Positions 4,488 through 62,020 of a DNA stretch of 64,000 bases are shown here, piece after piece. The notes beneath the pieces were generated by a model. That model worked only from the letters and a program-made list of their open reading frames with translations. It searched no databases and had not been told where the DNA came from. A program made the position numbers and the translations under genes. Position 1 is the stretch's first letter; every line of letters starts with the position of its first letter. Location of the stretch: the sequence record OZ346187.1; one strand, given 5' to 3'. The DNA is from a phage.

Positions 4488-7400
4488 ATGAGTATGTGGA
4501 ATTTTGACTTTGAGGCCTCAGGTCTTCTGGACGAGGAAGATCTTTACTACCATTGTGGCCTGTTTAAAGAGTTGAATAAAAATAATTTTATGTTGTTTTT
4601 GCCTATCAATGATAGATCTCATTACAGTGAAGAGGAGGTTGAAAAAGCAAAACAATTTATGCTGGCAAAGCAAGATATCTATCCTAGCTGCTCTGTCCGT
4701 ATTGCGGATTTCAGCCAGCTTGAATGGTGGTTAACCGGGAACTCCGATTGGTCACCCACATCATTAAGTTGTCACAACTGTTTTAGTTATGACTTTATCT
4801 TGATGGAGAAGCTGTCTGGTATTCATTTTGATATGTTCCGTGATCCCAAGTGTATGGGGACAATCAATAATCATCAGGTGAACCTGTTCGACACTCTGCC
4901 AATGAGTCGTATACTATGGCCCGACAGACCGTTACCTAAAGGATGCCCTGATTCTGTATACAATCCTGTTACAAAACGTATGCAGCAGGTAGGTCCTCAT
5001 GGCCTAATGGCGTGGGGGTACGCTTTAGGAAACCAGAAGGTTAAAATTGATGACTGGAGAAATTTACCTCTGTGGAAGTATGTTGATCGTGTATTCGAGG
5101 ACGTTATCATCCAGGAGCTGCTCTGGAAAGAGCTGGTAGCGGAATCAAAAGGTGTATTCTACGGCAAATCTGACATGCAGAACTTTATGTACGATCCAGC
5201 CAAAGAGAAGCCGAAAGGGTTCAAGAAGATTACCTGGAAGAATGCATTACGCCGAGGCATGCTGCAGCACTTCCTGATGGAGCTGCAGGCCCGTCAGGGT
5301 GTATACTTCGACATAGATGGAGCTATTGCTTTACGTGACCGTTGCGATGCGTGGATGAAAGAAATCGCTGATCGTGTTGAACCACAACTACCTTTAAAAG
5401 AGCTGTCAATGTCTCAGCGGCCCAAGTTCCCTGAAAAGCCGTTTAACCAAGACGGGACAATCTCTAATAATGGTTGGAAATGGTTAAAAGATAAGCTTGG
5501 CTATCCTGTAGACATGAGTGCTTTAGAGTTCAAAGCCCCGCCTAAGCGAGCATTTACCTCTACAGGAGATGTCAGCAAGATGGGGATAAAATGGTGTGAA
5601 GAGATGGGCTGCAAAGACCCCGATAAGATGGCTGATTTCTTGAGAGGCTATATTAAGGGCACCTCCACACCACAACCCTTACCTAAAGAGCTGATGGATC
5701 AGGCAATAAGTGATCTGCAGCAGAAGCGAATGCCTGACTGCAAGATACCTATGAAAATCAGCAATCAGGACGACATCAAGCGATACCTAATCAGTGCTGG
5801 TTGGCTCCCAACAATGTGGAGAACTAAAGATGTAACTAAAGACAGCAAGAAGAAAGCTTTACCTGATGCAGATGTTGATGCACGAGTATATGCATATATG
5901 GACGAGCTTTTGGAGTCAGAGTATTGTGACCTAATTATCAACTTCTGGAACAAAACTGATGCTAAGTTCCAGACAACCGTGCACAAGTTCCGAAGCTTTC
6001 CTAACTCCGAAAGGATTAAAAAGGAAGTATTCGGGAAAATACGTAGAAAAGCCAGGGCACTTATTACTTCTCCGCAACTGAAAGATACGTTTGGACACCT
6101 ATGCCCAAATCTTGAAAAATTGAACGGAGAGATGGCTAAAGATATCGTCTTGTGGTTATCATTGCGAAACCGCAGATCGGTCCTTGATCCAATCAAGGAG
6201 GATAAGGTTGATACTGGTCTTCTTAATCACCCACGTTTGAAGATTGACCATAAGCTTCCTGCTAAAAGCTCTGGATTAACAAACACTTCCAGACAGAAAC
6301 ACAGTATTTGTGCAAACATGCCTAAACCATCTCCTAAAGTGGTTATGGGTAAAGAGATGCGTAGTCTGTGGGGTGTTCCTCCGGGATACTTTGAGATCGG
6401 TATTGACGGGTCCAACTTAGAGCAGCTTATCGGGGCTTGGGGTGCCTTTGAGTTCGACAACGGCCTGTATTATGATGTTGTAAGTAATGGCGATGCACAC
6501 TGTTATTCAGGAGATACACAAATTCTCACGGAGAAAGGGTGGGTGAGGTTTGAAGATCTTGATCCGGGAACACAAGTGTTCCAGTACGATCACAACACCT
6601 CGTCAATGAACCTTGTTACTCCATTAAATTACGTTAAGCGTAGTTATTGTGGGGATATGTATCATTTCCACAACAGTAGTGTGGATTTTATGGTTACAGA
6701 TCAACACAGGATGCTGACTGTGGATCACAGAAGCAATAAATTGTTTGAAGATTTGGCAAAAGACCTGAAAGCAGGTAAAGGGTCTAATTCAGGAAGAAGG
6801 TTTATCCATGCGGCAGAGTTTTATGGGAATACAACCTTATCTCCTGCCCAGGTTAATTTGCTTATTGCTATTCACGATGATGGGCACTTGCATACAAATA
6901 AGGACGGCAGCATCGTGTGCAGGATTCAGGTCGGAAAGGGAAGAAAAGTTGCAACGCTTTTAGATACTTTTTCTGCTCTAAGCCTTAGTTATGTAGAGCA
7001 GAGCGGGAAAACCACAAAAGGGGGCTTACTGGCGAGAAGGTTCCAATTCCACGTTCCGTCCTGGGTATTTGAGTTTTTGGACAACAATAAGGATTTCACC
7101 TATAACCTGATGAACCTTGATAAAGAATCTAAAAACCTGTTTATAGCTTCTTTATCTAACTGGGACGGGTGGGTATCTTCCGAAGGTGGAAAGGTTGCTT
7201 ACTACTCCCAGGCCGAGTGCAGGAAGAAATCTGTAGAGGTGGTGTCTGCGCTGGCTACTCAGTGTGGTTTACGGAATAATACGGTGGCGATTCACAAAAA
7301 AGGTCGTGCCGTGCAGCACAGAATCACAATTGGTAGCAAACAGAGAGCAGGGTTGCTGACACTATCTAAAGAGTCTGTCGAGGTGAGCGGTTCTTTGGTT

Positions 7401-7880
7401 TATTGCGTTACCGTCCCTTCTGGAGCAATCATTGTGAGAAGGAATGGTAAAGTGGCAGTGTGCGGTAACTGTAATAACGCCAAAGCTTACTCTTCTGTAG
7501 CAGGCAAGGAGATTTCCCGTAACGATGGTAAACCTATCACGTATGGGGTTATGTATGGGGCACAAAAAGATAAAGTTGCAGATATGCTGGACATCTCCCC
7601 AGAGTTGGGACAAAGGGTAATCGATGCACTCTGGGATGCCAACCCAGGTCTTAAGGGGCGCAAAGAGGATCTGGAGAAATTCTGGGAAGCAACAGGTAAG
7701 AAGTTTATCTACTCTTTTGATGGTCATGCTATCTGGACCCGATCTAAACACTCTTTACTTAATGCATACCAACAAAATGGCGGTGCATCGTTGTGTGACT
7801 TAGTTGGAATACTCATGCACCACCAGATGGTGAAGCGTGGGTGGTACGATGAAGGTGTTCGTCGTATTATTTATTACCAT
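4488..7880 (+). CDS. DNA polymerase, family A (T7 gp5-like), exon 1, containing an intein
   Basis: N-terminal FDFEASGL...YHCG exonuclease motif; motif A-like IDGSNLEQL; motif B-like RNDGKPITYGVMYGAQ; ORF stop at 7884-7886 is assigned to the intron. Confidence 0.8.
6501..7469 (+). mobile_element. intein with LAGLIDADG-type homing endonuclease, in-frame between polymerase motifs A and B
   Basis: Starts CYSGDTQILTEKG (intein block A); two LAGLIDADG-like motifs (LLIAIHDDGHL, FIASLSNWDGWV); ends ...VAVCGN followed by Cys at 7470; 969 nt, frame preserved. Confidence 0.65.
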
Positions 7881-8132
7881 AAATAACATTGTGGCTTCAT
7901 AGAGTAATCTATGTCGAATAACCTCTTTAACTGCGGGAAGCCTAAACCTTATGGCAAGGTAATCCGCAACGAAGCGCTCAAAAGAGCGAACGCTCAGAGG
8001 CCATTCCGAAAGGAAGTAGACCAGCAAGTGCGGTCGAAATGGGAGGATTCCTGTGGTTGCTTATCATAGGAATATGAGATGGTCCGATCCTACGTGAAAA
8101 CGTATGGCTATGCACGTAATGGTGCGGGGTAG
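7881..8132 (+). mobile_element. ORF-less group I intron in the DNA polymerase gene
   Basis: P-like CTGCGGGAAGCC and Q-like AATCCGCAACG elements; exon ends in U (7880) that can pair with GUGG 11 nt downstream (P1); ACGU-GAAA-ACGU hairpin near 3' end; last nt G (8132); joining 7880 to 8133 keeps frame. Confidence 0.55.
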
Positions 8133-57693: not shown

Positions 57694-58248
57694 ATGAAAT
57701 ACTTTGTAACAAGCGACACACACTTTCTCCACCAGCGGGTCATGGAGTTTGATTCATGTCAAAAACACAGATCTCAGTATGATCACAATCTTGACAGTAT
57801 GAATGCGGGAATCATCACCAAGTGGAACTCTGTTGTGTCACCTGCAGACACTGTGTTCCACTTGGGAGATATTGCATGCACTAATGATAAGAATATCAAC
57901 AAATTGCTCCCAGATATTCTAAATATGTTGAACGGACATATTATTCTTGTTCGTGGCAACCATGACACAAGGACGACTGTCAAAATTATGAAAGAGTTCG
58001 GTCATGAGGTTGTAGATTATTACGAGCTTCGCCACAACAAGAATTTGATCTGTATGAGCCATTACCAGTTTGCAAAGTGGAACAGAAAGCCTCACGGATC
58101 AGTCCAACTGTTCGGTCATGCTCACGGAACCACACAACAGTTGTTTGGCAGGCAGCTTGATGTCGGTTGGGATGTGTGGGGGAGACTCTTACCATTAGAA
58201 GAGGCATACCGTATTGCAATGAGTTTTGATATTGACAGCAGGGAGTAA
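57694..58248 (+). CDS. calcineurin-like metallophosphoesterase
   Basis: SDTHF, GDI, GNHD metallophosphatase motifs; ATG at 57694 after GAGGAA; ORF track 57589-58248. Confidence 0.6.
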   Translation: MKYFVTSDTHFLHQRVMEFDSCQKHRSQYDHNLDSMNAGIITKWNSVVSPADTVFHLGDIACTNDKNINKLLPDILNMLNGHIILVRGNHDTRTTVKIMKEFGHEVVDYYELRHNKNLICMSHYQFAKWNRKPHGSVQLFGHAHGTTQQLFGRQLDVGWDVWGRLLPLEEAYRIAMSFDIDSRE

Positions 58249-58295
58249 TCCCTGCTATTTTAAAGAAAATTGCCACACAAGGAGAATCAGGAGAT

Positions 58296-58646
58296 ATGAA
58301 AGATGGGGATAAGCTGCTATATCTTAAAGTCCCCCTTGAAATACTATCTATGTCAAAAGTTTTGAATGACACAACTGGGGAGGTTGTTGTTCTTGACTTG
58401 TATGACAAGATCGTATACTGCTACCTGCACAACTGGTATAAGCTTGGAGGAAATTCACGCTTCACACCAAGCACAAGGAAAATTGCAGCAGATGTTGGGA
58501 TAAAGAAAACAAAAGCAGCAGCGTGCGTTAAAACTTTAGAATGTGCAGGAGTGGTTGAAACATCCACACAAGGGAGAGGTAAAAGATGCACATTTTCCAA
58601 AGTTTTGCCACCAGAAGAAGTTATTCGGATGTCAACAACTGGTTAG
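58296..58646 (+). CDS. hypothetical protein, possibly DNA-binding
   Basis: 116-aa ORF directly upstream of the iteron-like repeats. Confidence 0.35.
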   Translation: MKDGDKLLYLKVPLEILSMSKVLNDTTGEVVVLDLYDKIVYCYLHNWYKLGGNSRFTPSTRKIAADVGIKKTKAAACVKTLECAGVVETSTQGRGKRCTFSKVLPPEEVIRMSTTG

Positions 58647-58717
58647 ACCAGTAAAAACTTAAATATCTGTACTATAAGGATTCGTATGTTTTATGTTCGC
58701 CATGGAACGGATACTAT

Positions 58718-58783
58718 TAACTGTCCGTGATACGGACACATCTGCCCGTAATACGGACACTAACTGTCCGTGATACGGACACA
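58718..58783. repeat. three tandem ~21-bp iteron-like repeats, each an inverted repeat
   Basis: TAACTGTCCGTGATACGGACACA at 58718 and 58761 (identical) and TCTGCCCGTAATACGGACAC between; each is GTCCGT-N3-ACGGAC; followed by an AT-rich segment with GGTACTAAGTAC / CTAAGTACC palindromes (58790-58920). Confidence 0.8.
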
Positions 58784-58920
58784 TAAAGAATATAACTAAA
58801 ATAACTAAATAATAAAAAATAAAAGATCTAGTACTTATGGTACTAAGTACATATACTTAACTTATGTAGAATATACTAGATCCTAAGTACCATGTTTTAA
58901 ATTTATTACTTACTATGGGC

Positions 58921-59170
58921 AGTGTCGGCCCTTCATTGGCACTCGCCTACGAGGGGCGAGATGCCGGGCCTCCTTGGTGCACACAATAACAGAAGTTCAT
59001 ACATGCAGGTCTGTTAACATGTGTGGGAGCGAAGCGATAGCGCAGGCCAAAGGCCGAGCACTGATGTGGGCCACCGACGAAAGCTTGCCAGCGCCGTAAG
59101 GAGTCGGTTGAGAGTCTCCCGCACGAGCTTGGATGAAGTTTATGTGTGGAAACTGACAAGAAGGCCCCTA
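58921..59170 (+). ncRNA. candidate structured non-coding RNA (unclassified)
   Basis: ~250 bp GC-rich block in AT-rich surroundings; several hairpins (CTCGCC-TACGAGG-GGCGAG, GGCC-AAA-GGCC); only a weak overlapping minus-strand ORF. Confidence 0.25.
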
Positions 59171-59285
59171 AATCGCTCCACAGCTATATAAACTATACCA
59201 GGTAATGCAATCGCACCAGTTTGATAGAAAAGCTCGTTACAAAGCGATACAGTGAGTTTTTCTATAACTTGAAGAGGAGGCAGCT

Positions 59286-59864
59286 ATGGGTTCACGCAAA
59301 GATGACCGTGAAAAGATTGCAAAACGTTATCAGAATGAAGAACAGATGGAGAAAACTTTCAAGTGGAAGCCAGGTTTCCAGCGTAATCATTCTAACGCTC
59401 GTGATCGTAAGCATCCGGATAAGTGGTTAACACCGCCAAATGATGGCATGCAGGTTGGGGATGAGAAGGAGCTGTCACCTGGAAAAGATGGCAACTACAT
59501 TCGCACTAAGGAAGCAGGTCCAAAGGATGACAGCTATCTTGTAGATAAGGTTCTTGACGGTGTTGATGTAGGTGTTGACACTGTACGAAACCTTTTTCTT
59601 GGTTGGTATCGCACAGGGTTTTTCGACATCAAGGCTATTCGTCGTGTTTGTGATATTAAAAAGTCTGCCTACGATGATGATTCCCTACATCGCACTCTGA
59701 GACAATACTCAGAGAGGTACGGTCATCCAGTTATCACTCTTGACGATATTAACGAAGTTATGTATCATGTAGAGGTTGTTGCAGGTAGGTTCGGTGATGC
59801 ATATCTCGGTATTCTTTCTGCAAAGGATGAGGTAATGTTAAATAAGATTTACTATGAACGCTGA
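59286..59864 (+). CDS. hypothetical protein
   Basis: 192-aa ORF after AGGAGG RBS. Confidence 0.5.
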   Translation: MGSRKDDREKIAKRYQNEEQMEKTFKWKPGFQRNHSNARDRKHPDKWLTPPNDGMQVGDEKELSPGKDGNYIRTKEAGPKDDSYLVDKVLDGVDVGVDTVRNLFLGWYRTGFFDIKAIRRVCDIKKSAYDDDSLHRTLRQYSERYGHPVITLDDINEVMYHVEVVAGRFGDAYLGILSAKDEVMLNKIYYER

Positions 59865-59874
59865 GGGGCGATTA

Positions 59875-60063
59875 ATGAACAATCCGGTAGCAAAGAACTG
59901 TAATAAATTCAACAAGTCTGCGATTCACACTGACAGGAAAAAGAGTTGGTTTCCTGACATTGACGAGGAGCTTGAGAGTTACTTTGAAGATTTAGTCACC
60001 AATGCAGATGAGGTTGCGATTAAAGAATACGCAGACAGGAGGGATAAGGCCGGAATCTGTTGA
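59875..60063 (+). CDS. hypothetical protein
   Basis: ORF track 59854-60063; ATG at 59875. Confidence 0.35.
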   Translation: MNNPVAKNCNKFNKSAIHTDRKKSWFPDIDEELESYFEDLVTNADEVAIKEYADRRDKAGIC

Positions 60064-60088
60064 CAAAAATAATGTTACCTGATAAGAT
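60060..60088 (+). promoter_or_regulatory. sigma70-type promoter
   Basis: TTGACA, 17-bp spacer, TAAGAT. Confidence 0.5.
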
Positions 60089-60139
60089 CTGCAATATGAT
60101 GTGATACAATTTTAACTTACGAGGTCTACAGGTAATGCT

Positions 60140-60382
60140 ATGTTTAAGGTTAAGCTCGTTTTTCGTTCCATGAATGAGGATTATTTAGAAGATGAAGGTG
60201 AATTTCGTGCACTGGATGATGCAATAGATTTTGCCAACGACTTAGCTTGTATGAATACGGGTTATGGGCTATGCTGTTGGGATGGTGGTGTTCAGATCGG
60301 TGATAGCAAGATCTTCTACTTCTACCCTGAGCCTGATAACAAACAAATTAAGTATGTTTTATTTATTTGTGCTTTACAATGA
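60140..60382 (+). CDS. hypothetical protein
   Basis: 80-aa ORF downstream of promoter. Confidence 0.4.
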   Translation: MFKVKLVFRSMNEDYLEDEGEFRALDDAIDFANDLACMNTGYGLCCWDGGVQIGDSKIFYFYPEPDNKQIKYVLFICALQ

Positions 60383-60669
60383 GGTTGTTTTCGTGTATCA
60401 TGATGAATATCCAATTTAAAGATGAATTTGATGGCTTTATCTCCGGATGCTTTGAAACAGGGTTCGGAGAAGGCTGAGTTCCCCTTAGAGGGCTTGATAG
60501 TGCACCACACTTAAAATGGTAGGGGCAGCCAGCACATGACGATGTGACCCCAGCCAACCTGTAATAAGGTCGAGCCAAAGTGCGGTAATGGGCTCTGGTA
60601 ACCCACTTGTTGGGTCTTGCTGGTCCAGGACGCTGGACAAGTCGCAGGGAATACCACCCTGCGGCGAAC

Positions 60670-60698
60670 TTGACAATCAGTATTTGCTATGATAAAAT
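60670..60698 (+). promoter_or_regulatory. sigma70-type promoter
   Basis: TTGACA, 17-bp spacer, TAAAAT. Confidence 0.5.
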
Positions 60699-60726
60699 CC
60701 ACCTATCACGTGATAATGGAGGAAAC

Positions 60727-61065
60727 ATGGCGGATACAACTAAAAAGCGTCGCCGTAGAGGCAGACCTCTGAAAGAGGAGTCCAACGCCATTCAGCTAGA
60801 GAAGAACATCCTTGATATGAAGGAATCTTTTATAGCGATGGTTCCAGAAGCTCACAAAGTTTTAAGAGAGCTGATGTTGGACCCGAAAACCAAACAAAAT
60901 ATTCGTCAAAGCATTGCAGAGTATGTTCTTGATAAGGCAGACCGAATGCAGGAAGAATATGATGAGATGTTTGGTGAAGAGGAAGAGGTGGTAGTGGAAG
61001 AGGCTGAAAAACCAGCACCTTTTATGCCATTTACTACAGAAATACAGCCTGTTAGCAATAGCTAA
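60727..61065 (+). CDS. AT-hook-containing small acidic protein
   Basis: ATG at 60727 after GGAGGAAAC; N-terminal KKRRRRGRPLK (AT-hook-like RGRP); acidic C-terminus; ORF track 60607-61065. Confidence 0.4.
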   Translation: MADTTKKRRRRGRPLKEESNAIQLEKNILDMKESFIAMVPEAHKVLRELMLDPKTKQNIRQSIAEYVLDKADRMQEEYDEMFGEEEEVVVEEAEKPAPFMPFTTEIQPVSNS

Positions 61066-61074
61066 AATATTTTC

Positions 61075-61103
61075 TTGACAAACTTTGCTTAACAGTGTAA
61101 TAT
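61075..61103 (+). promoter_or_regulatory. sigma70-type promoter upstream of tRNA cluster
   Basis: TTGACA, 17-bp spacer, TAATAT. Confidence 0.5.
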
Positions 61104-61162
61104 TGTAAACATGGTCTCCCACCTTTTCTGGCGGCTAAGGTGTAAAAGAAAGCCACCCAGTG

Positions 61163-61237
61163 CCCTGTTAGCTTAGTGGATAAAGCAGCGGCCTTCTAAG
61201 CCGTTGACACTGGTTCGAGTCCAGTACGGGGTGCCAA
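61163..61237 (+). tRNA. tRNA-Arg (anticodon TCT)
   Basis: Hand-folded cloverleaf: acceptor GCCCTGT/ACGGGGT (with G.U pairs), anticodon loop CTTCTAA, T-loop GGTTCGAGTCC, CCA encoded. Confidence 0.65.
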
Positions 61238-61241
61238 ATTG

Positions 61242-61327
61242 GGGAGTTATCCCGTAGAGGTAGCGGTGTAGACTGTAAATCTATTGTCATTGCGACTCGG
61301 GTGGTTCGACTCCACCACTCCCCACCA
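61242..61327 (+). tRNA. tRNA-Tyr (anticodon GTA), long variable arm
   Basis: Acceptor GGGGAGT/ACTCCCC, anticodon loop CTGTAAA, T-arm GGTGG-TTCGACT-CCACC, CCA encoded. Confidence 0.65.
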
Positions 61328-61441
61328 AATTTATATTTTTAGATGCATAAATAATACAGATAATGGCATTGATATTTATCGTCGTTTATACTAGTCACTA
61401 ACTGCTCGAAAATCAGTGTCATTATCAGTATAATTTATAAA

Positions 61442-61532
61442 GGAGGGTAGGGAGCAATGGTGCTCAAGCGGTCTTGAAAACCGTCCCGTTGAGGATGACT
61501 CGATGATGGTTCGATTCCATTACTCTCCGCCA
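61442..61532 (+). tRNA. tRNA-Ser (anticodon TGA), long variable arm
   Basis: Acceptor GGAGGGT/ACTCTCC, D-stem GAGC/GCTC, anticodon loop CTTGAAA, T-loop GGTTCGATTCC, CCA encoded. Confidence 0.6.
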
Positions 61533-61630
61533 CATTGTTGACCTTGTAATTAAGCGAAAGCCGGAAGCAGAACCGGATTATCAAATGTTACAGTCGTCAT
61601 CGCCGACTAGCAACATGGTCAACATACTGA

Positions 61631-61729
61631 GCTAGGTAAGCCCTTTGGCAAGGGCGAGGATTTTTAATCCTGAAAATAGACGAGGTAGTCGTTGAATACA
61701 TAGGTGGTTCGATTCCATCACCTAGCACC
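61631..61729 (+). tRNA. atypical tRNA-like gene (~99 nt), anticodon ambiguous (most consistent with TTT)
   Basis: Perfect 7-bp acceptor GCTAGGT/ACCTAGC, D-arm GCCC-TTTGGCAA-GGGC, T-arm GGTGG-TTCGATT-CCATC; anticodon stem imperfect with loop TTTTTAA; ~29-nt extra region before the T-arm; 3' end ACC then T (CCA not fully encoded). Confidence 0.35.
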
Positions 61730-61734
61730 TTTTT

Positions 61735-61810
61735 GCTGATGTAGCACAATCGGTAGTGCAATTGATTTGTAATCAATAGGTTGTAGGTTCAAGTCCTGCC
61801 ATCAGCACCA
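61735..61810 (+). tRNA. tRNA-Thr (anticodon TGT)
   Basis: Acceptor GCTGATG/CATCAGC, D-arm GCAC-AATCGGTA-GTGC, anticodon stem ATTGA/TCAAT with loop TTTGTAA, CCA encoded. Confidence 0.7.
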
Positions 61811-61811
61811 A

Positions 61812-61886
61812 GGCCCTGTAGCTGGAAGGTTCAAGCAAGCGACTCATAATCGCCAGACGGTGGTTCAATTCCACCCAGGGCCACCA
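61812..61886 (+). tRNA. tRNA-Met (anticodon CAT; initiator, elongator or Ile-lysidine type not resolved)
   Basis: Acceptor GGCCCTG/CAGGGCC, anticodon loop CTCATAA, T-arm GGTGG-TTCAATT-CCACC, CCA encoded. Confidence 0.65.
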
Positions 61887-61897
61887 AATAGTAAATA

Positions 61898-61974
61898 CTC
61901 CGCGTAGCTCAGCTTGGTAGAGCGCCTGATTTGGGATCAGGAGGTCGAGTGTTCGAATCACTCCGTGGAGACCA
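61898..61974 (+). tRNA. tRNA-Pro (anticodon TGG)
   Basis: Acceptor CTCCGCG/CGTGGAG, D-arm GCTC-AGCTTGGTA-GAGC, anticodon stem CCTGA/TCAGG with loop TTTGGGA, T-arm GAGTG-TTCGAAT-CACTC, CCA encoded. Confidence 0.7.
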
Positions 61975-62020
61975 CTTTCAGTTATACTTTAAACATATAT
62001 AAACAAAAGGAACCTTTAAA

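What the first reader, a model, noticed from the sequence alone, without database searches (positions are those of the whole stretch)
60430..60700. Second GC-rich structured block ending in a consensus promoter
Region 60430-60660 is GC-rich with hairpins such as CAGGG-AATACCA-CCCTG and carries only short overlapping frames on both strands. It ends at a perfect TTGACA, 17 bp, TAAAAT promoter for the AT-hook protein gene. It could be a leader RNA, a regulatory site or a degraded gene.
Basis: seen in the sequence. Interest (0 to 1): 0.4.

Follow-up and report, generated by a model that had tools for sequence, protein, structure and literature searches.

The report
Conserved folded phage RNA beside tRNAs
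The GC-rich block is not a broken gene but encodes a folded RNA of about 190 bases. Its 45-base core is almost identical in rV5-like phages, T4-like phages and several other phage groups, usually next to their tRNA genes. It matches no catalogued RNA family, and its job is unknown.

Summary
In detail: GC is 0.48-0.52 against 0.37-0.40 around it, the named hairpin is present, and a TTGACA-17-TAAAAT promoter sits at 60670-60698.

The interpretation can be sharpened. Window 60478-60669 (+) is a structured non-coding RNA. The first 48 bases of the reported span (60430-60477) are probably the end of a small real ORF.

The RNA's core (60550-60596) is a junction closed by a helix, holding two small hairpins and invariant GUAA turns. 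It is 93-95% identical to the denV/vs.8 intergenic region of about 690 T4-like phages. It also occurs in Phapecoctavirus, Vibrio phages, a jumbo phage and marine contigs.

Covariation supports the fold. In 54 distinct sequences 90% of cells are paired, against 28-41% in slid controls, with four pair types at two positions. A flanking pseudoknot is also supported.

Outside T4-likes, most copies with enough flanking sequence lie on the same strand as tRNA genes, 40-600 nt away. Some have their own promoter or terminator.

There was no Rfam match, no conserved reading frame, and no match to E. coli rRNA or to T4 rnaC/rnaD.

The function is unknown. My best guess is a trans-acting RNA made alongside the phage tRNAs. 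The family appears undescribed.

The parts
60478..60669 (+). Whole structured non-coding RNA, about 192 nt. The 5' end is inferred from the relative L083, where a consensus promoter sits directly in front of the homologous first module. The 3' end is set provisionally at the -35 box of P74.
   Evidence: TTGACA-16-TATACT at L083 4579-4606, RNA start about 4613, next promoter at 4784; no conserved ORF; no Rfam match
60481..60510 (+). 5' module M1: hairpin CCC-UUAGA-GGG followed by CUUGAUAGUGCACCACAC. It is found only in Vequintavirus-like phages. It is identical in relatives whose flanking proteins are only 66-69% identical, and a second copy occurs 3' of the core in the L072/L075/L083 lineage.
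60522..60551 (+). P2/P3 arm. P2 is GGGG (60522-25) paired with CCCC (60548-51). P3 is CACAU (60533-37), loop GACG, AUGUG (60542-46). Between them lies the 5' strand X of the pseudoknot, CCAG (60529-32).
   Evidence: the same offsets carry compensatory sequences in other lineages (P2 GGAAC/GUUCC, UGCAA/UUGCA, UGCGU/ACGCA, GGGAA/UUCCC; P3 CUACG/CGUAG, CAUG/CAUG, CCUCAU/AUGAGG). One search gives the formal count in the marine subfamily.
60550..60596 (+). Conserved core. P1 is AGCC-A (60552-56) paired with U (60589) and GGCU (60591-94), with G60590 bulged. H1 is ACCU-GUAAUA-AGGU (60557-70). Linker is CGA. H2 is GC-CAAAGU-GC (60574-83). The junction strand is GGUAA (60584-88).
   Evidence: CM R1 hit of 68.1 bits, E 8.5e-24, the only one in the window. 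Covariation in 54 distinct sequences. 93-95% identity to T4-like phages.
60595..60598 (+). X', the 3' strand of the pseudoknot. CUGG pairs with CCAG at 60529-32 and lies immediately after P1.
   Evidence: Other lineages have GAGG/CCUC, GGGUA/UACCC, GGGAG/CUCCC and ACAAGAAC/GUUCUUGU at the same relative positions.
60602..60641 (+). Two 3' hairpins. The first is CCCA-CUUGU-UGGG (60602-14). The second is GUCCAG-GACG-CUGGAC (60623-38, arms 60620-41).
   Evidence: inverted repeat; relative L058 has GCUCAG-GACG-CUGAGC, which is two double compensatory changes.
60643..60663 (+). It has no U tract, so it is not an intrinsic terminator. It is absent from the L072/L075/L083 lineage.
   Evidence: Only loop positions vary among rV5-like relatives.
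60670..60698 (+). Sigma-70-type promoter P74 for ORF74: TTGACA, 17 nt, TAAAAT, with a TG extended -10. It is adjacent to the RNA, not part of it.
   Evidence: annotated in DQ832317; the homologous promoter sits at L083 4784-4812
60379..60477 (+). Probable real small ORF of 32 aa that overlaps the first 48 nt of the reported span. It is the boundary of the RNA, not part of it.
   Evidence: Annotated as nomine_209. ATGA overlap with the ORF75 stop. 4/4 synonymous differences against L058. Reduced to 8 codons in L083.

Best explanation
Window 60478-60669 (+) encodes a compact, pseudoknotted non-coding RNA. It belongs to a widespread phage RNA family that is not in Rfam.

Shown:
- A near-invariant core of about 45 nt is closed by helix P1, with one bulged G. 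It holds a 4-bp hairpin with a GUAA(N)A hexaloop, a 2-bp hairpin and a GGUAA junction strand.
- An upstream P2/P3 arm and a pseudoknot (X-X') lock the 5' arm to the strand just after P1.
- The element is read on the + strand. G-U pairs occur only in that sense.
- It is non-coding.
- Outside T4-likes, most copies with enough flanking sequence sit on the same strand as tRNA genes, 40-600 nt away. Some have their own promoter or terminator.

Inferred:
- In this phage it is transcribed from the ORF75 promoter, and possibly a weak internal one, at the head of the ORF74/tRNA cluster.
- It is released as a stable RNA by the nucleases that mature tRNA precursors.
- It acts in trans, presenting the invariant junction to a partner conserved across gammaproteobacterial hosts. 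That partner is most plausibly part of tRNA metabolism or translation.

The identity of the partner is not shown.
For: Conservation:
- The core is 93-95% identical between this window and about 690 T4-like records.
- It was found in 44 IMG/VR loci and 39 metagenome loci.
- CM R1 scores 43-68 bits for members, under 18 bits for the chance pattern matches checked, and finds one hit in the window.

Covariation in the core (54 distinct sequences):
- 90.2% of cells are paired, against 74.7% in shuffles (0/500) and 28-41% when slid.
- Pair 7-40: AU 32, UA 12, UG 6, CG 4.
- Pair 26-33: CG 37, UA 12, GC 3, AU 1.
- Pairs 5-43 and 6-42 show 3-4 pair types each.
- The H1 stem shows U-A to A-U in a Vibrio phage.

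Flanking helices:
- P2, P3 and pseudoknot X-X' lie at fixed offsets with fully compensatory sequences across lineages.
- In the marine subfamily 100% of 192 cells pair, 9 pairs change on both sides, and slid controls give 21-47%.
- The 3' hairpin GUCCAG/CUGGAC becomes GCUCAG/CUGAGC in L058.

Constraint relative to proteins: module M1 and the core are essentially unchanged where ORF74 and ORF75 are only 69% and 66% identical.

tRNA linkage:
- 47 nt after tRNA-Ser, followed by a terminator (L059).
- 40 nt after tRNA-Met (L079).
- 54 nt after tRNA-Glu (L028).
- Inside the phiWec190 tRNA array (L014).
- A tRNA-Tyr + RNA unit antisense to capsid genes in a 60-kb Vibrio phage (L111).

Transcription signals:
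- A consensus-like promoter directly upstream in L083; a weaker promoter-like match in L078; a TATAAT seen by eye in L057.
- Hairpin plus U-tract terminators read by eye after the RNA in L059, L060 and L061.
Against: - No expression data were available for any member.
- In this window no good promoter lies directly upstream (the best is TTTACA-17-TATCAT at 60373-60401) and there is no terminator. The RNA could simply be a 3' UTR or a read-through leader.
- In T4-likes the element is always immediately 5' of vs.8, which looks cis-regulatory.
- tRNA linkage may reflect biogenesis (borrowed processing signals) rather than function.
- Most invariant core columns were fixed by the search pattern, so their invariance is partly circular.
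- About 15 loci outside T4-likes, several of them short, show no tRNA in the flanks held.
- No partner has been identified. CM searches against the E. coli rRNA operon and T4 rnaC/rnaD found nothing.
Confidence: 0.6

Rival explanations
1. It is a cis-acting leader, riboswitch-like or a protein-binding operator. The folded core senses a ligand or protein and controls the gene just downstream: ORF74 here, vs.8 in T4-like phages.
For: - In all 45 T4-like loci held, the core lies on the same strand 5' of vs.8, usually 60-120 nt from its start. The upstream gene varies: denV, ipIII or others.
- In L083 the RNA's own promoter would read through into ORF74.
- The size, the pseudoknot and the invariant unpaired bases resemble riboswitch aptamers.
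Against: - Here a consensus promoter separates the RNA from ORF74.
- The downstream feature differs between lineages: vs.8, ORF74, tRNAs, or a terminator with no gene.
- vs.8 and ORF74 are unrelated and have no known function.
- No terminator or RBS-sequestering alternative structure was seen.
- Other Vequintavirinae genera keep ORF74 without the RNA.
Confidence: 0.15
2. It is a self-cleaving ribozyme or a dedicated processing signal. It cuts tRNA-operon or polycistronic transcripts at a defined site and so separates tRNAs from neighbouring RNA.
For: - A compact pseudoknotted fold with many invariant unpaired nucleotides.
- Position inside or beside tRNA arrays at a fairly constant 40-62 nt from a tRNA 3' end.
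- One copy per genome at transcript junctions such as denV|vs.8.
Against: - No match to any ribozyme family in Rfam, even at E up to 10.
- Nothing identifies a cleavage site.
- Copies with their own promoter and terminator (L059-L061, L078) have nothing obvious to process.
- Untestable with these tools.
Confidence: 0.1
3. It is an anti-defence decoy. The RNA mimics a host or phage RNA, such as a tRNA or rRNA feature, and soaks up a host nuclease or sensor that would otherwise block translation during infection.
For: - It sits with phage tRNA genes, which are themselves thought to counter tRNA-targeting defences (own knowledge).
- Its distribution among unrelated phage groups suggests horizontal spread of a useful module.
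- From memory, the H1 hexaloop GUAAUA equals the 23S rRNA 1093-1098 loop, and GCGGUAAU equals part of the 16S 530 loop.
- One phage tRNA array (L059) also carries a near-perfect copy of 23S helix 43.
Against: - CM R1 finds nothing in the E. coli 16S/23S/5S operon (best 6.8 bits).
- BLAST of the block against 5,426 E. coli genomes finds nothing.
- It is not a tandem repeat like type III antitoxin RNAs.
- The resemblances are 6-8-nt motifs that could arise by chance.
Confidence: 0.1
4. It is a degraded or unrecognised protein-coding gene, or a DNA-level site such as an origin, a packaging site or an operator.
For: - All three minus-strand frames are open for 52-64 codons.
- rV5-type annotations place small 'hypothetical proteins' here.
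- Iteron-like repeats and a putative replication or regulator gene lie 1.7 kb upstream.
Against: - Indels of 1-7 nt among close relatives shift all frames.
- Changes are compensatory in helices, including G-U pairs that would be A-C on the other strand.
- The T4 'vs.8' extension over the core acquires a stop codon in close relatives.
- There is strand-specific co-orientation with tRNAs.
Confidence: 0.03

Closest known systems
GOLLD and ROOL RNAs (large ornate phage/prophage RNAs)
   Same: They are phage-encoded and heavily structured with pseudoknots, have no known function, and are 'often near tRNA islands' (PMC12286853).
   Different: Those RNAs are about 500-800+ nt and form multimeric cages. 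This one is about 130-250 nt. There was no cmscan match to either family in the window or in the relatives scanned. Hosts here are mainly Enterobacteria and Vibrio.
T4 stable RNAs species 1 and 2 (rnaC, rnaD)
   Same: They are small stable RNAs of unknown function encoded at the end of a phage tRNA cluster and presumably cut out of tRNA precursors (annotation; background from own knowledge).
   Different: CM R1 gives no hit in the T4 tRNA/rnaC/rnaD region (best 7.6 bits). In T4 the present element lies about 6 kb away, between denV and vs.8.
Riboswitch or ribosomal-protein-leader type cis-regulatory RNAs
   Same: Similar size, a pseudoknot and invariant junction nucleotides. In T4-likes the position 5' of one gene family is fixed.
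   Different: There is no consistent downstream gene across lineages. Some copies have their own promoter and terminator. No expression platform was seen and there is no Rfam match.
23S rRNA helix 44 hexaloop GUAAUA (1093-1098) and GNRA-like turns
   Same: H1 carries the same hexaloop. The only variable loop position is the fifth (U/A/C), which fits a GNRA-like fold with one extruded base (from memory, not tested).
   Different: The rest of the core does not resemble the GTPase-associated centre. The CM search of the E. coli rrn operon was negative.
Type III antitoxin RNAs (ToxI) and the pseudo-ToxI of the rV5-relative phiTE
   Same: Phage-borne structured, pseudoknotted RNA used against host systems (own knowledge; PMC5449768 abstract).
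   Different: Those are tandem 34-36-nt repeats processed by their toxin. This element is a single copy without internal repeats.
tRNA-linked small RNAs (for example 3' external transcribed spacer RNAs of tRNA operons)
   Same: An RNA lying directly 3' of a tRNA gene, so that tRNA maturation would create its 5' end.
   Different: Those act by simple base-pairing and are not highly structured or widely conserved. This one has a conserved tertiary-looking core.

Membership tests
Any Rfam 15 family | Covariance-model match at the gathering score, or at least a suggestive E-value | tested here: not met
   No match overlaps 60430-60700 at gathering score or at E up to 10. Homologous sites in 15 other loci also gave none.
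tRNA / tRNA-like gene | Cloverleaf detectable by ARAGORN or RF00005 | tested here: not met
   ARAGORN and cmscan find the 7 tRNAs at 61162-61974 but nothing in 60478-60669.
GOLLD / ROOL | Match to RF01998 / RF03087-type models; length over 500 nt | tested here: not met
   No cmscan match. The RNA is about 190 nt.
GOLLD / ROOL | Phage-encoded and located near tRNA islands | tested here: met
   Same strand as tRNA genes and 40-600 nt from them in most loci outside T4-likes. Here the array starts about 570 nt downstream of the core.
T4 rnaC/rnaD stable RNAs | Sequence/structure similarity to species 1 or 2 RNA | tested here: not met
   CM R1 over T4T 67400-75400 gives a best hit of 7.6 bits, not at rnaC/rnaD.
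Riboswitch / cis-regulatory leader | Constant position 5' of one gene family across lineages | tested here: not met
   Met within T4-likes (vs.8). Across the family the downstream feature is ORF74, tRNAs, vs.8 or a terminator.
Riboswitch / cis-regulatory leader | Expression platform (terminator or RBS-sequestering helix) coupled to the aptamer | tested here: inconclusive
   There is no U-tract terminator after the block, and a promoter intervenes before ORF74. The T4 3' domain was not resolved.
Protein-coding gene / pseudogene | Reading frame conserved in relatives with a synonymous-biased substitution pattern | tested here: not met
   Frames are shifted by 1-7-nt indels among close relatives. 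Substitutions are compensatory in stems. Only 60379-60477 behaves as coding.
Type III antitoxin RNA (ToxI-like) | Tandem direct repeats of about 34-36 nt | tested here: not met
   No direct repeat family apart from a 9-nt chance pair.
rRNA mimic (whole core) | Core model matches a region of host 16S/23S/5S rRNA | tested here: not met
   CM R1 on the E. coli rrnH operon gives a best hit of 6.8 bits, E about 1. BLAST against E. coli genomes finds nothing.
Sigma-70 promoter (P74) | -35/-10 hexamers with 16-18-nt spacing close to consensus | tested here: met
   TTGACA-17-TAAAAT, 11/12, with TG. Conserved in L083. Activity is not testable here.
Self-cleaving ribozyme | Site-specific self-scission | not testable with these tools
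   Needs an in vitro transcription and cleavage assay. No similarity to known ribozyme models.

The most novel reading that the evidence does not exclude
The invariant junction is an active site: two GUAA turns, a bulged G and a pseudoknot. On this reading the RNA is a phage-encoded ribozyme or a direct tRNA-binding RNA, for example docking the tRNA elbow or CCA end through its GGU/GUAA elements. It would act on the tRNA pool during infection and would be an RNA-level player in translation takeover, present even in T4.
Probability: 0.12. Interest if true: 0.9.

Novelty: new variant of a known kind. Interest (0 to 1): 0.62.

Why it matters
If this holds, T4 (through its denV-vs.8 spacer), rV5 and many other large lytic phages share a previously unlisted, highly constrained folded RNA.

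The core is kept at about 93-95% identity across phage families that share almost nothing else at the DNA level. It is far better conserved than the neighbouring proteins. That level of constraint usually marks RNAs that bind a universal cellular machine or catalyse a reaction.

Its habitual place beside phage tRNA genes puts it with GOLLD, ROOL and T4 species 1/2 RNAs, the unexplained RNAs of phage tRNA islands. Unlike those, it is small enough (about 100-nt core domain) for direct structural and genetic work in model phages with easy genetics.

It also corrects annotations. The T4 vs.8 start appears to be annotated too far upstream, and several 'hypothetical proteins' in rV5-like genomes are probably spurious.

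Tried and rejected
- Rfam at gathering and permissive thresholds on the window and on 15 related loci: only tRNAs, group I introns and noise.
- BLAST of the block against 5,426 E. coli genomes: nothing.
- Link to a neighbouring protein. vs.8 homologues occur only in T4-like loci. ORF74 and ORF75 occur only in Vequintavirinae. Pfam and PHROGs give no function for any of them.
- Other Vequintavirinae genera (Mydo, PVP-SE1, 4MG, CR3, pEp_SNUABM_01): the ORF74 homologue sits inside the tRNA array, but the core is absent within 1.5 kb.
- A generic search for the longest complementary stretch between upstream and downstream flanks was no better than cross-sequence controls (5.58 against 5.51). Only the position-specific comparison was informative.
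- RNAalifold on the MAFFT alignment of Vequintavirus-type sequences misaligned the covarying P2/P3 arm and missed it.
- rRNA-mimic idea for the whole core: negative.
- T4 rnaC/rnaD identity: negative.
- Genome-contig scan: 3 pattern hits. The two tested with the model (L106, L108) score under 18 bits, and none shows a P1 helix.
- Literature: seven searches, including the core sequence itself, found no description of this element.
- The 2023 catalogue of about 10,000 viral candidate RNAs (PMC10690425) might contain it. Its supplementary files are not held.

Full report
**Where we are.** The window is an rV5-like myovirus (Vequintavirus).
- Bases 58000-62000 are 98.5% identical to Escherichia phage nomine.
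- Bases 60400-60730 are 100% identical to rV5 itself, on the reverse strand of DQ832317.
- The finding lies between ORF75 (60140-60382) and ORF74 (60727-61065), about 500 nt upstream of a seven-gene tRNA cluster at 61162-61974.

**Checking the observation.**
- GC rises to 0.475-0.52 over 60400-60800, against 0.37-0.40 on both sides.
- The promoter is TTGACA-17-TAAAAT at 60670-60698. It scores 11/12 with an extended -10 TG and is annotated as P74 in the rV5 record.
- The + strand folds better than shuffled sequence (z = -2.3); the - strand reaches only z = -1.5.

The observation therefore stands, with one boundary correction. Bases 60430-60477 belong to a small ORF (60379-60477, 32 aa) that looks real:
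- Its ATG overlaps the ORF75 stop as ATGA.
- It is annotated in phage nomine.
- The four differences from a divergent relative (L058) are all synonymous third positions.

The non-coding block starts at about 60478.

**It is not a gene remnant.** All three minus-strand frames are open for 52-64 codons, a side effect of composition. Close relatives have blocks of 193, 194, 196, 192 and 187 nt, because of small indels in one linker. These indels splice different frames together. No frame is preserved.

**The key result.** A 43-nt stretch (60550-60592) is 93-95% identical to an intergenic sequence in about 690 T4-like phages.
- In T4 it lies just after denV, inside the annotated start of 'vs.8'.
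- In T4-like loci the element always sits 5' of vs.8, usually 60-120 nt from its start, whatever gene is upstream.
- The long T4 vs.8 reading frame across it is interrupted by a stop in close relatives, so that N-terminal extension looks like an annotation artefact.

Degenerate pattern scans found the same core elsewhere:
- In Phapecoctavirus phiWec190, inside its tRNA array.
- In 137-kb and 60-kb Vibrio phages.
- In a 360-kb jumbo contig, in marine (TARA) contigs and in other contigs. In total, 44 IMG/VR loci and 39 metagenome loci.
- Three hits in bacterial MAGs. The two tested with the model score under 18 bits and none has a closing helix, so they look like chance.

**Structure of the core.** I aligned 54 distinct sequences (A1) and tested this model: 5'-P1-N1-[A CCU GUAANA AGG U]-C R A-[G S C... 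S' C]-GGUAA-N2-(bulged G)-P1'-3'.
- 90.2% of cells pair, against 74.7% in column shuffles (0/500 reach it) and 28-41% when the 3' partners are slid.
- N1:N2 occurs as AU 32, UA 12, UG 6, CG 4.
- S:S' occurs as CG 37, UA 12, GC 3, AU 1.
- The two inner P1 pairs show 3-4 pair types each, with only one unpaired cell between them.
- The hairpin-1 stem was fixed by my search pattern. A Vibrio phage found by BLAST has ACCA/UGGU instead of ACCU/AGGU, which is a compensatory change.
- G-U pairs occur only when the + strand is read. The element is therefore an RNA, or at least a single strand, of the + sense, the same sense as the tRNAs.

A caveat: most 'invariant' columns were specified in the search pattern, so their invariance is partly circular. 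The covarying positions were not specified.

A covariance model built from A1 (R1) finds exactly one site in the window: 60550-60596, 68.1 bits, E 8.5e-24. It separates members (43-68 bits) from the chance pattern matches I checked (under 18 bits).

**Structure outside the core.** At fixed offsets upstream of the core there are three elements:
- A hairpin P3.
- A helix P2 that encloses it.
- Between them a 4-8-nt strand X, which is complementary to the strand X' that follows P1 directly. This makes a pseudoknot.

The sequences differ but stay complementary:

| Lineage | P2 | P3 | X-X' |
|---|---|---|---|
| rV5 | GGGG/CCCC | CACAU/AUGUG | CCAG/CUGG |
| L083 | GGAAC/GUUCC | CUACG/CGUAG | GAGG/CCUC |
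| marine type | UGCAA/UUGCA | CAUG/CAUG | GGGUA/UACCC |
| L056 | UGCGU/ACGCA | CAUG/CAUG | GGGAG/CUCCC |
| L070 | GCGC/GCGC | CUAUG/CAUAG | ACAAGAAC/GUUCUUGU |
| T4 | GGGAA/UUCCC | CCUCAU/AUGAGG | not identified |

A formal count on eight marine-type sequences gave these results:
- 100% of 192 cells pair across all six helices, including the pseudoknot.
- Nine pairs change on both sides.
- Slid controls reach 21-47%.

In the rV5 group the 3' hairpin GUCCAG/CUGGAC becomes GCUCAG/CUGAGC in L058. The T4-type periphery differs, and I could not resolve its long-range pairings.

**Extent and transcription in the Vequintavirus group.** A divergent relative (L072/L075/L083) keeps the same gene order, and its ORF74 and ORF75 are 69% and 66% identical at the protein level. 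It has TTGACA-16-TATACT (11/12) directly in front of the first RNA module, and the ORF74 promoter directly after the last. In that lineage the RNA is its own transcription unit of about 170 nt.

In the window the corresponding upstream sequence is occupied by the small ORF. The best promoter-like site is weaker: TTTACA-17-TATCAT at 60373-60401. The RNA is probably made from the ORF75 promoter (60060-60088), but this is an inference.

Module M1 (60481-60510) and the core are almost unchanged between these lineages, although the proteins have diverged by a third.

**Genomic context elsewhere**. Outside T4-likes, most copies with enough flanking sequence lie on the same strand as tRNA genes and close to them. 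About 15 loci, several of them short, show no tRNA in the flanks held.
- L059: 47 nt after tRNA-Ser, then a terminator.
- L079: 40 nt after tRNA-Met.
- L028/L101: 54 nt after tRNA-Glu.
- L105: 48 nt after a tRNA.
- L090: 62 nt after tRNA-Gly.
- phiWec190: between tRNA-Thr and tRNA-Gly.
- A 60-kb Vibrio phage (L111): a tRNA-Tyr + RNA unit lies antisense to the capsid and neck genes around it.
- L060, L061, L057 and L078 show a promoter-like sequence and/or a terminator around the RNA, with no tRNA in the flanks held. Only L078 was scanned, and its match is weak.
- Other genera of Vequintavirinae have tRNA genes where rV5 has this RNA, and they lack the core within 1.5 kb of ORF74.

**What it is not.**
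- No Rfam family, at any threshold tried.
- Not a tRNA.
- Not T4 rnaC or rnaD.
- Not a tandem-repeat antitoxin RNA.
- Not similar to E. coli DNA.
- No match to the E. coli 16S/23S/5S operon with the core model.
- vs.8, ORF74 and ORF75 have no informative domain.

**What it most likely does.** Shown: it is a constrained, pseudoknotted RNA of a family spread across unrelated phage groups, habitually linked to tRNA genes.

Inferred: it is released from tRNA-type or polycistronic transcripts and acts in trans through its invariant junction on something conserved in the hosts. Translation or tRNA metabolism is the obvious guess. I give the whole statement 0.6. That it is a structured RNA of this family I rate at about 0.9. 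The trans-acting mechanism I rate at about 0.35.

The rivals:
- A cis-leader (0.15). This is strongest for T4-likes.
- A ribozyme or processing element (0.1).
- A decoy against host defences (0.1).
- Coding or a DNA site (0.03).

Two resemblances recalled from memory are leads only: the GUAAUA hexaloop of 23S helix 44, and GCGGUAAU of the 16S 530 loop. The whole-core rRNA test was negative.

**Comparison and novelty.** The nearest known things by context are GOLLD and ROOL, both 'often near tRNA islands' with unknown function (PMC12286853), and the T4 species 1/2 RNAs. By sequence and structure this element is none of them.

Seven literature searches, including one for the core sequence, found no description. 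It could still be an unnamed entry among the roughly 10,000 viral candidate RNAs of PMC10690425, whose supplementary files I could not read.

I rate it a new variant of a known kind: a tRNA-island-associated phage RNA of unknown function. Interest is 0.62. The presence of such an element in T4 and its extreme conservation would surprise specialists, and it is small enough to study directly. Against that, the function is unknown and prior description cannot be excluded.

Noticed in passing
L059:3351-3396 (IMGVR_UViG_3300042010_000030): Between two tRNA genes of a phage tRNA array lies AGGUGGGCUUAGAAGCAGCCAUCCUUUAAAGAGUGG. It matches LSU rRNA (RF02540 positions 1184-1229, 22-27 bits, E 1e-4 to 5e-4). 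From memory this is helix 43 of the GTPase-associated centre, the L11/thiostrepton site. That would be a phage-borne rRNA mimic in a tRNA array. It occurs only in this one of the 109 loci held at the time and not in the window.
   Followed up: partly
window 58900-59200: This is the 'first' GC-rich block (GC 0.53-0.55). It is conserved at 88-99% in 119 Vequintavirus records only and is mostly unannotated there, although rV5 annotates a 56-aa ORF78 in it. It may be a second non-coding RNA. It shares neither the core nor module M1 with the block studied here.
   Followed up: partly
window 58720-58785: Three copies of the hairpin-forming repeat CTGTCCGTGATACGGACAC (one has AATACGG). They lie just downstream of the gene annotated as 'putative transcriptional regulator / replication initiation protein'. 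They look like iterons or operators.
   Followed up: no
window 7871-8106: Group I catalytic intron, RF00028, 64.7 bits, above the gathering score.
   Followed up: no
window 61631-61729: A tRNA-like gene that ARAGORN calls with a 4-base anticodon (atcc) and a long variable region. Related records annotate it as tRNA-OTHER, pseudo or Lys. RF00005 scores 35.5 bits.
   Followed up: no
L002:2491-2601 (T4T 64782-64892): The annotated T4 vs.8 start codon lies upstream of the RNA core. In close relatives that frame hits a TAG before the conserved ATG (MRTFLTG...). The real vs.8 probably starts at L002:2602, and the first 37 codons are RNA, not protein.
   Followed up: partly
L039:5093-5137 (and '2 places' in PKO111, K65_evo8 and TH58): Some T4-like phages carry a second, diverged copy of the core about 70 nt downstream of the first (43.5 bits). 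This is a tandem duplication of the element.
   Followed up: no
L030, L033, L041, L044, L046, L067, L073, L089, L102 (phiWec190-like contigs): Both sides of the core carry repeated long hairpins: CACAACACACAACAGGTAAGAGCA ... TGCTCTTATCGTTGTG, enclosing variable inserts. They recur several times among the tRNA genes, like a modular cassette system.
   Followed up: no
L015:1000-2500 (Vibrio phage F100): About 1.4 kb around the core has no convincing ORF, only annotated 'proteins' of 31-61 aa on both strands. The core may be part of a much larger non-coding RNA there. The same may apply downstream of the core in L028, L037, L090 and L105.
   Followed up: no
(GenBank MG0656xx records): Eighteen records named 'Campylobacter phage' (host Campylobacter jejuni) are 97-100% identical to rV5-like coliphages across this region. 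They are probably mislabelled or contaminant assemblies.
   Followed up: no
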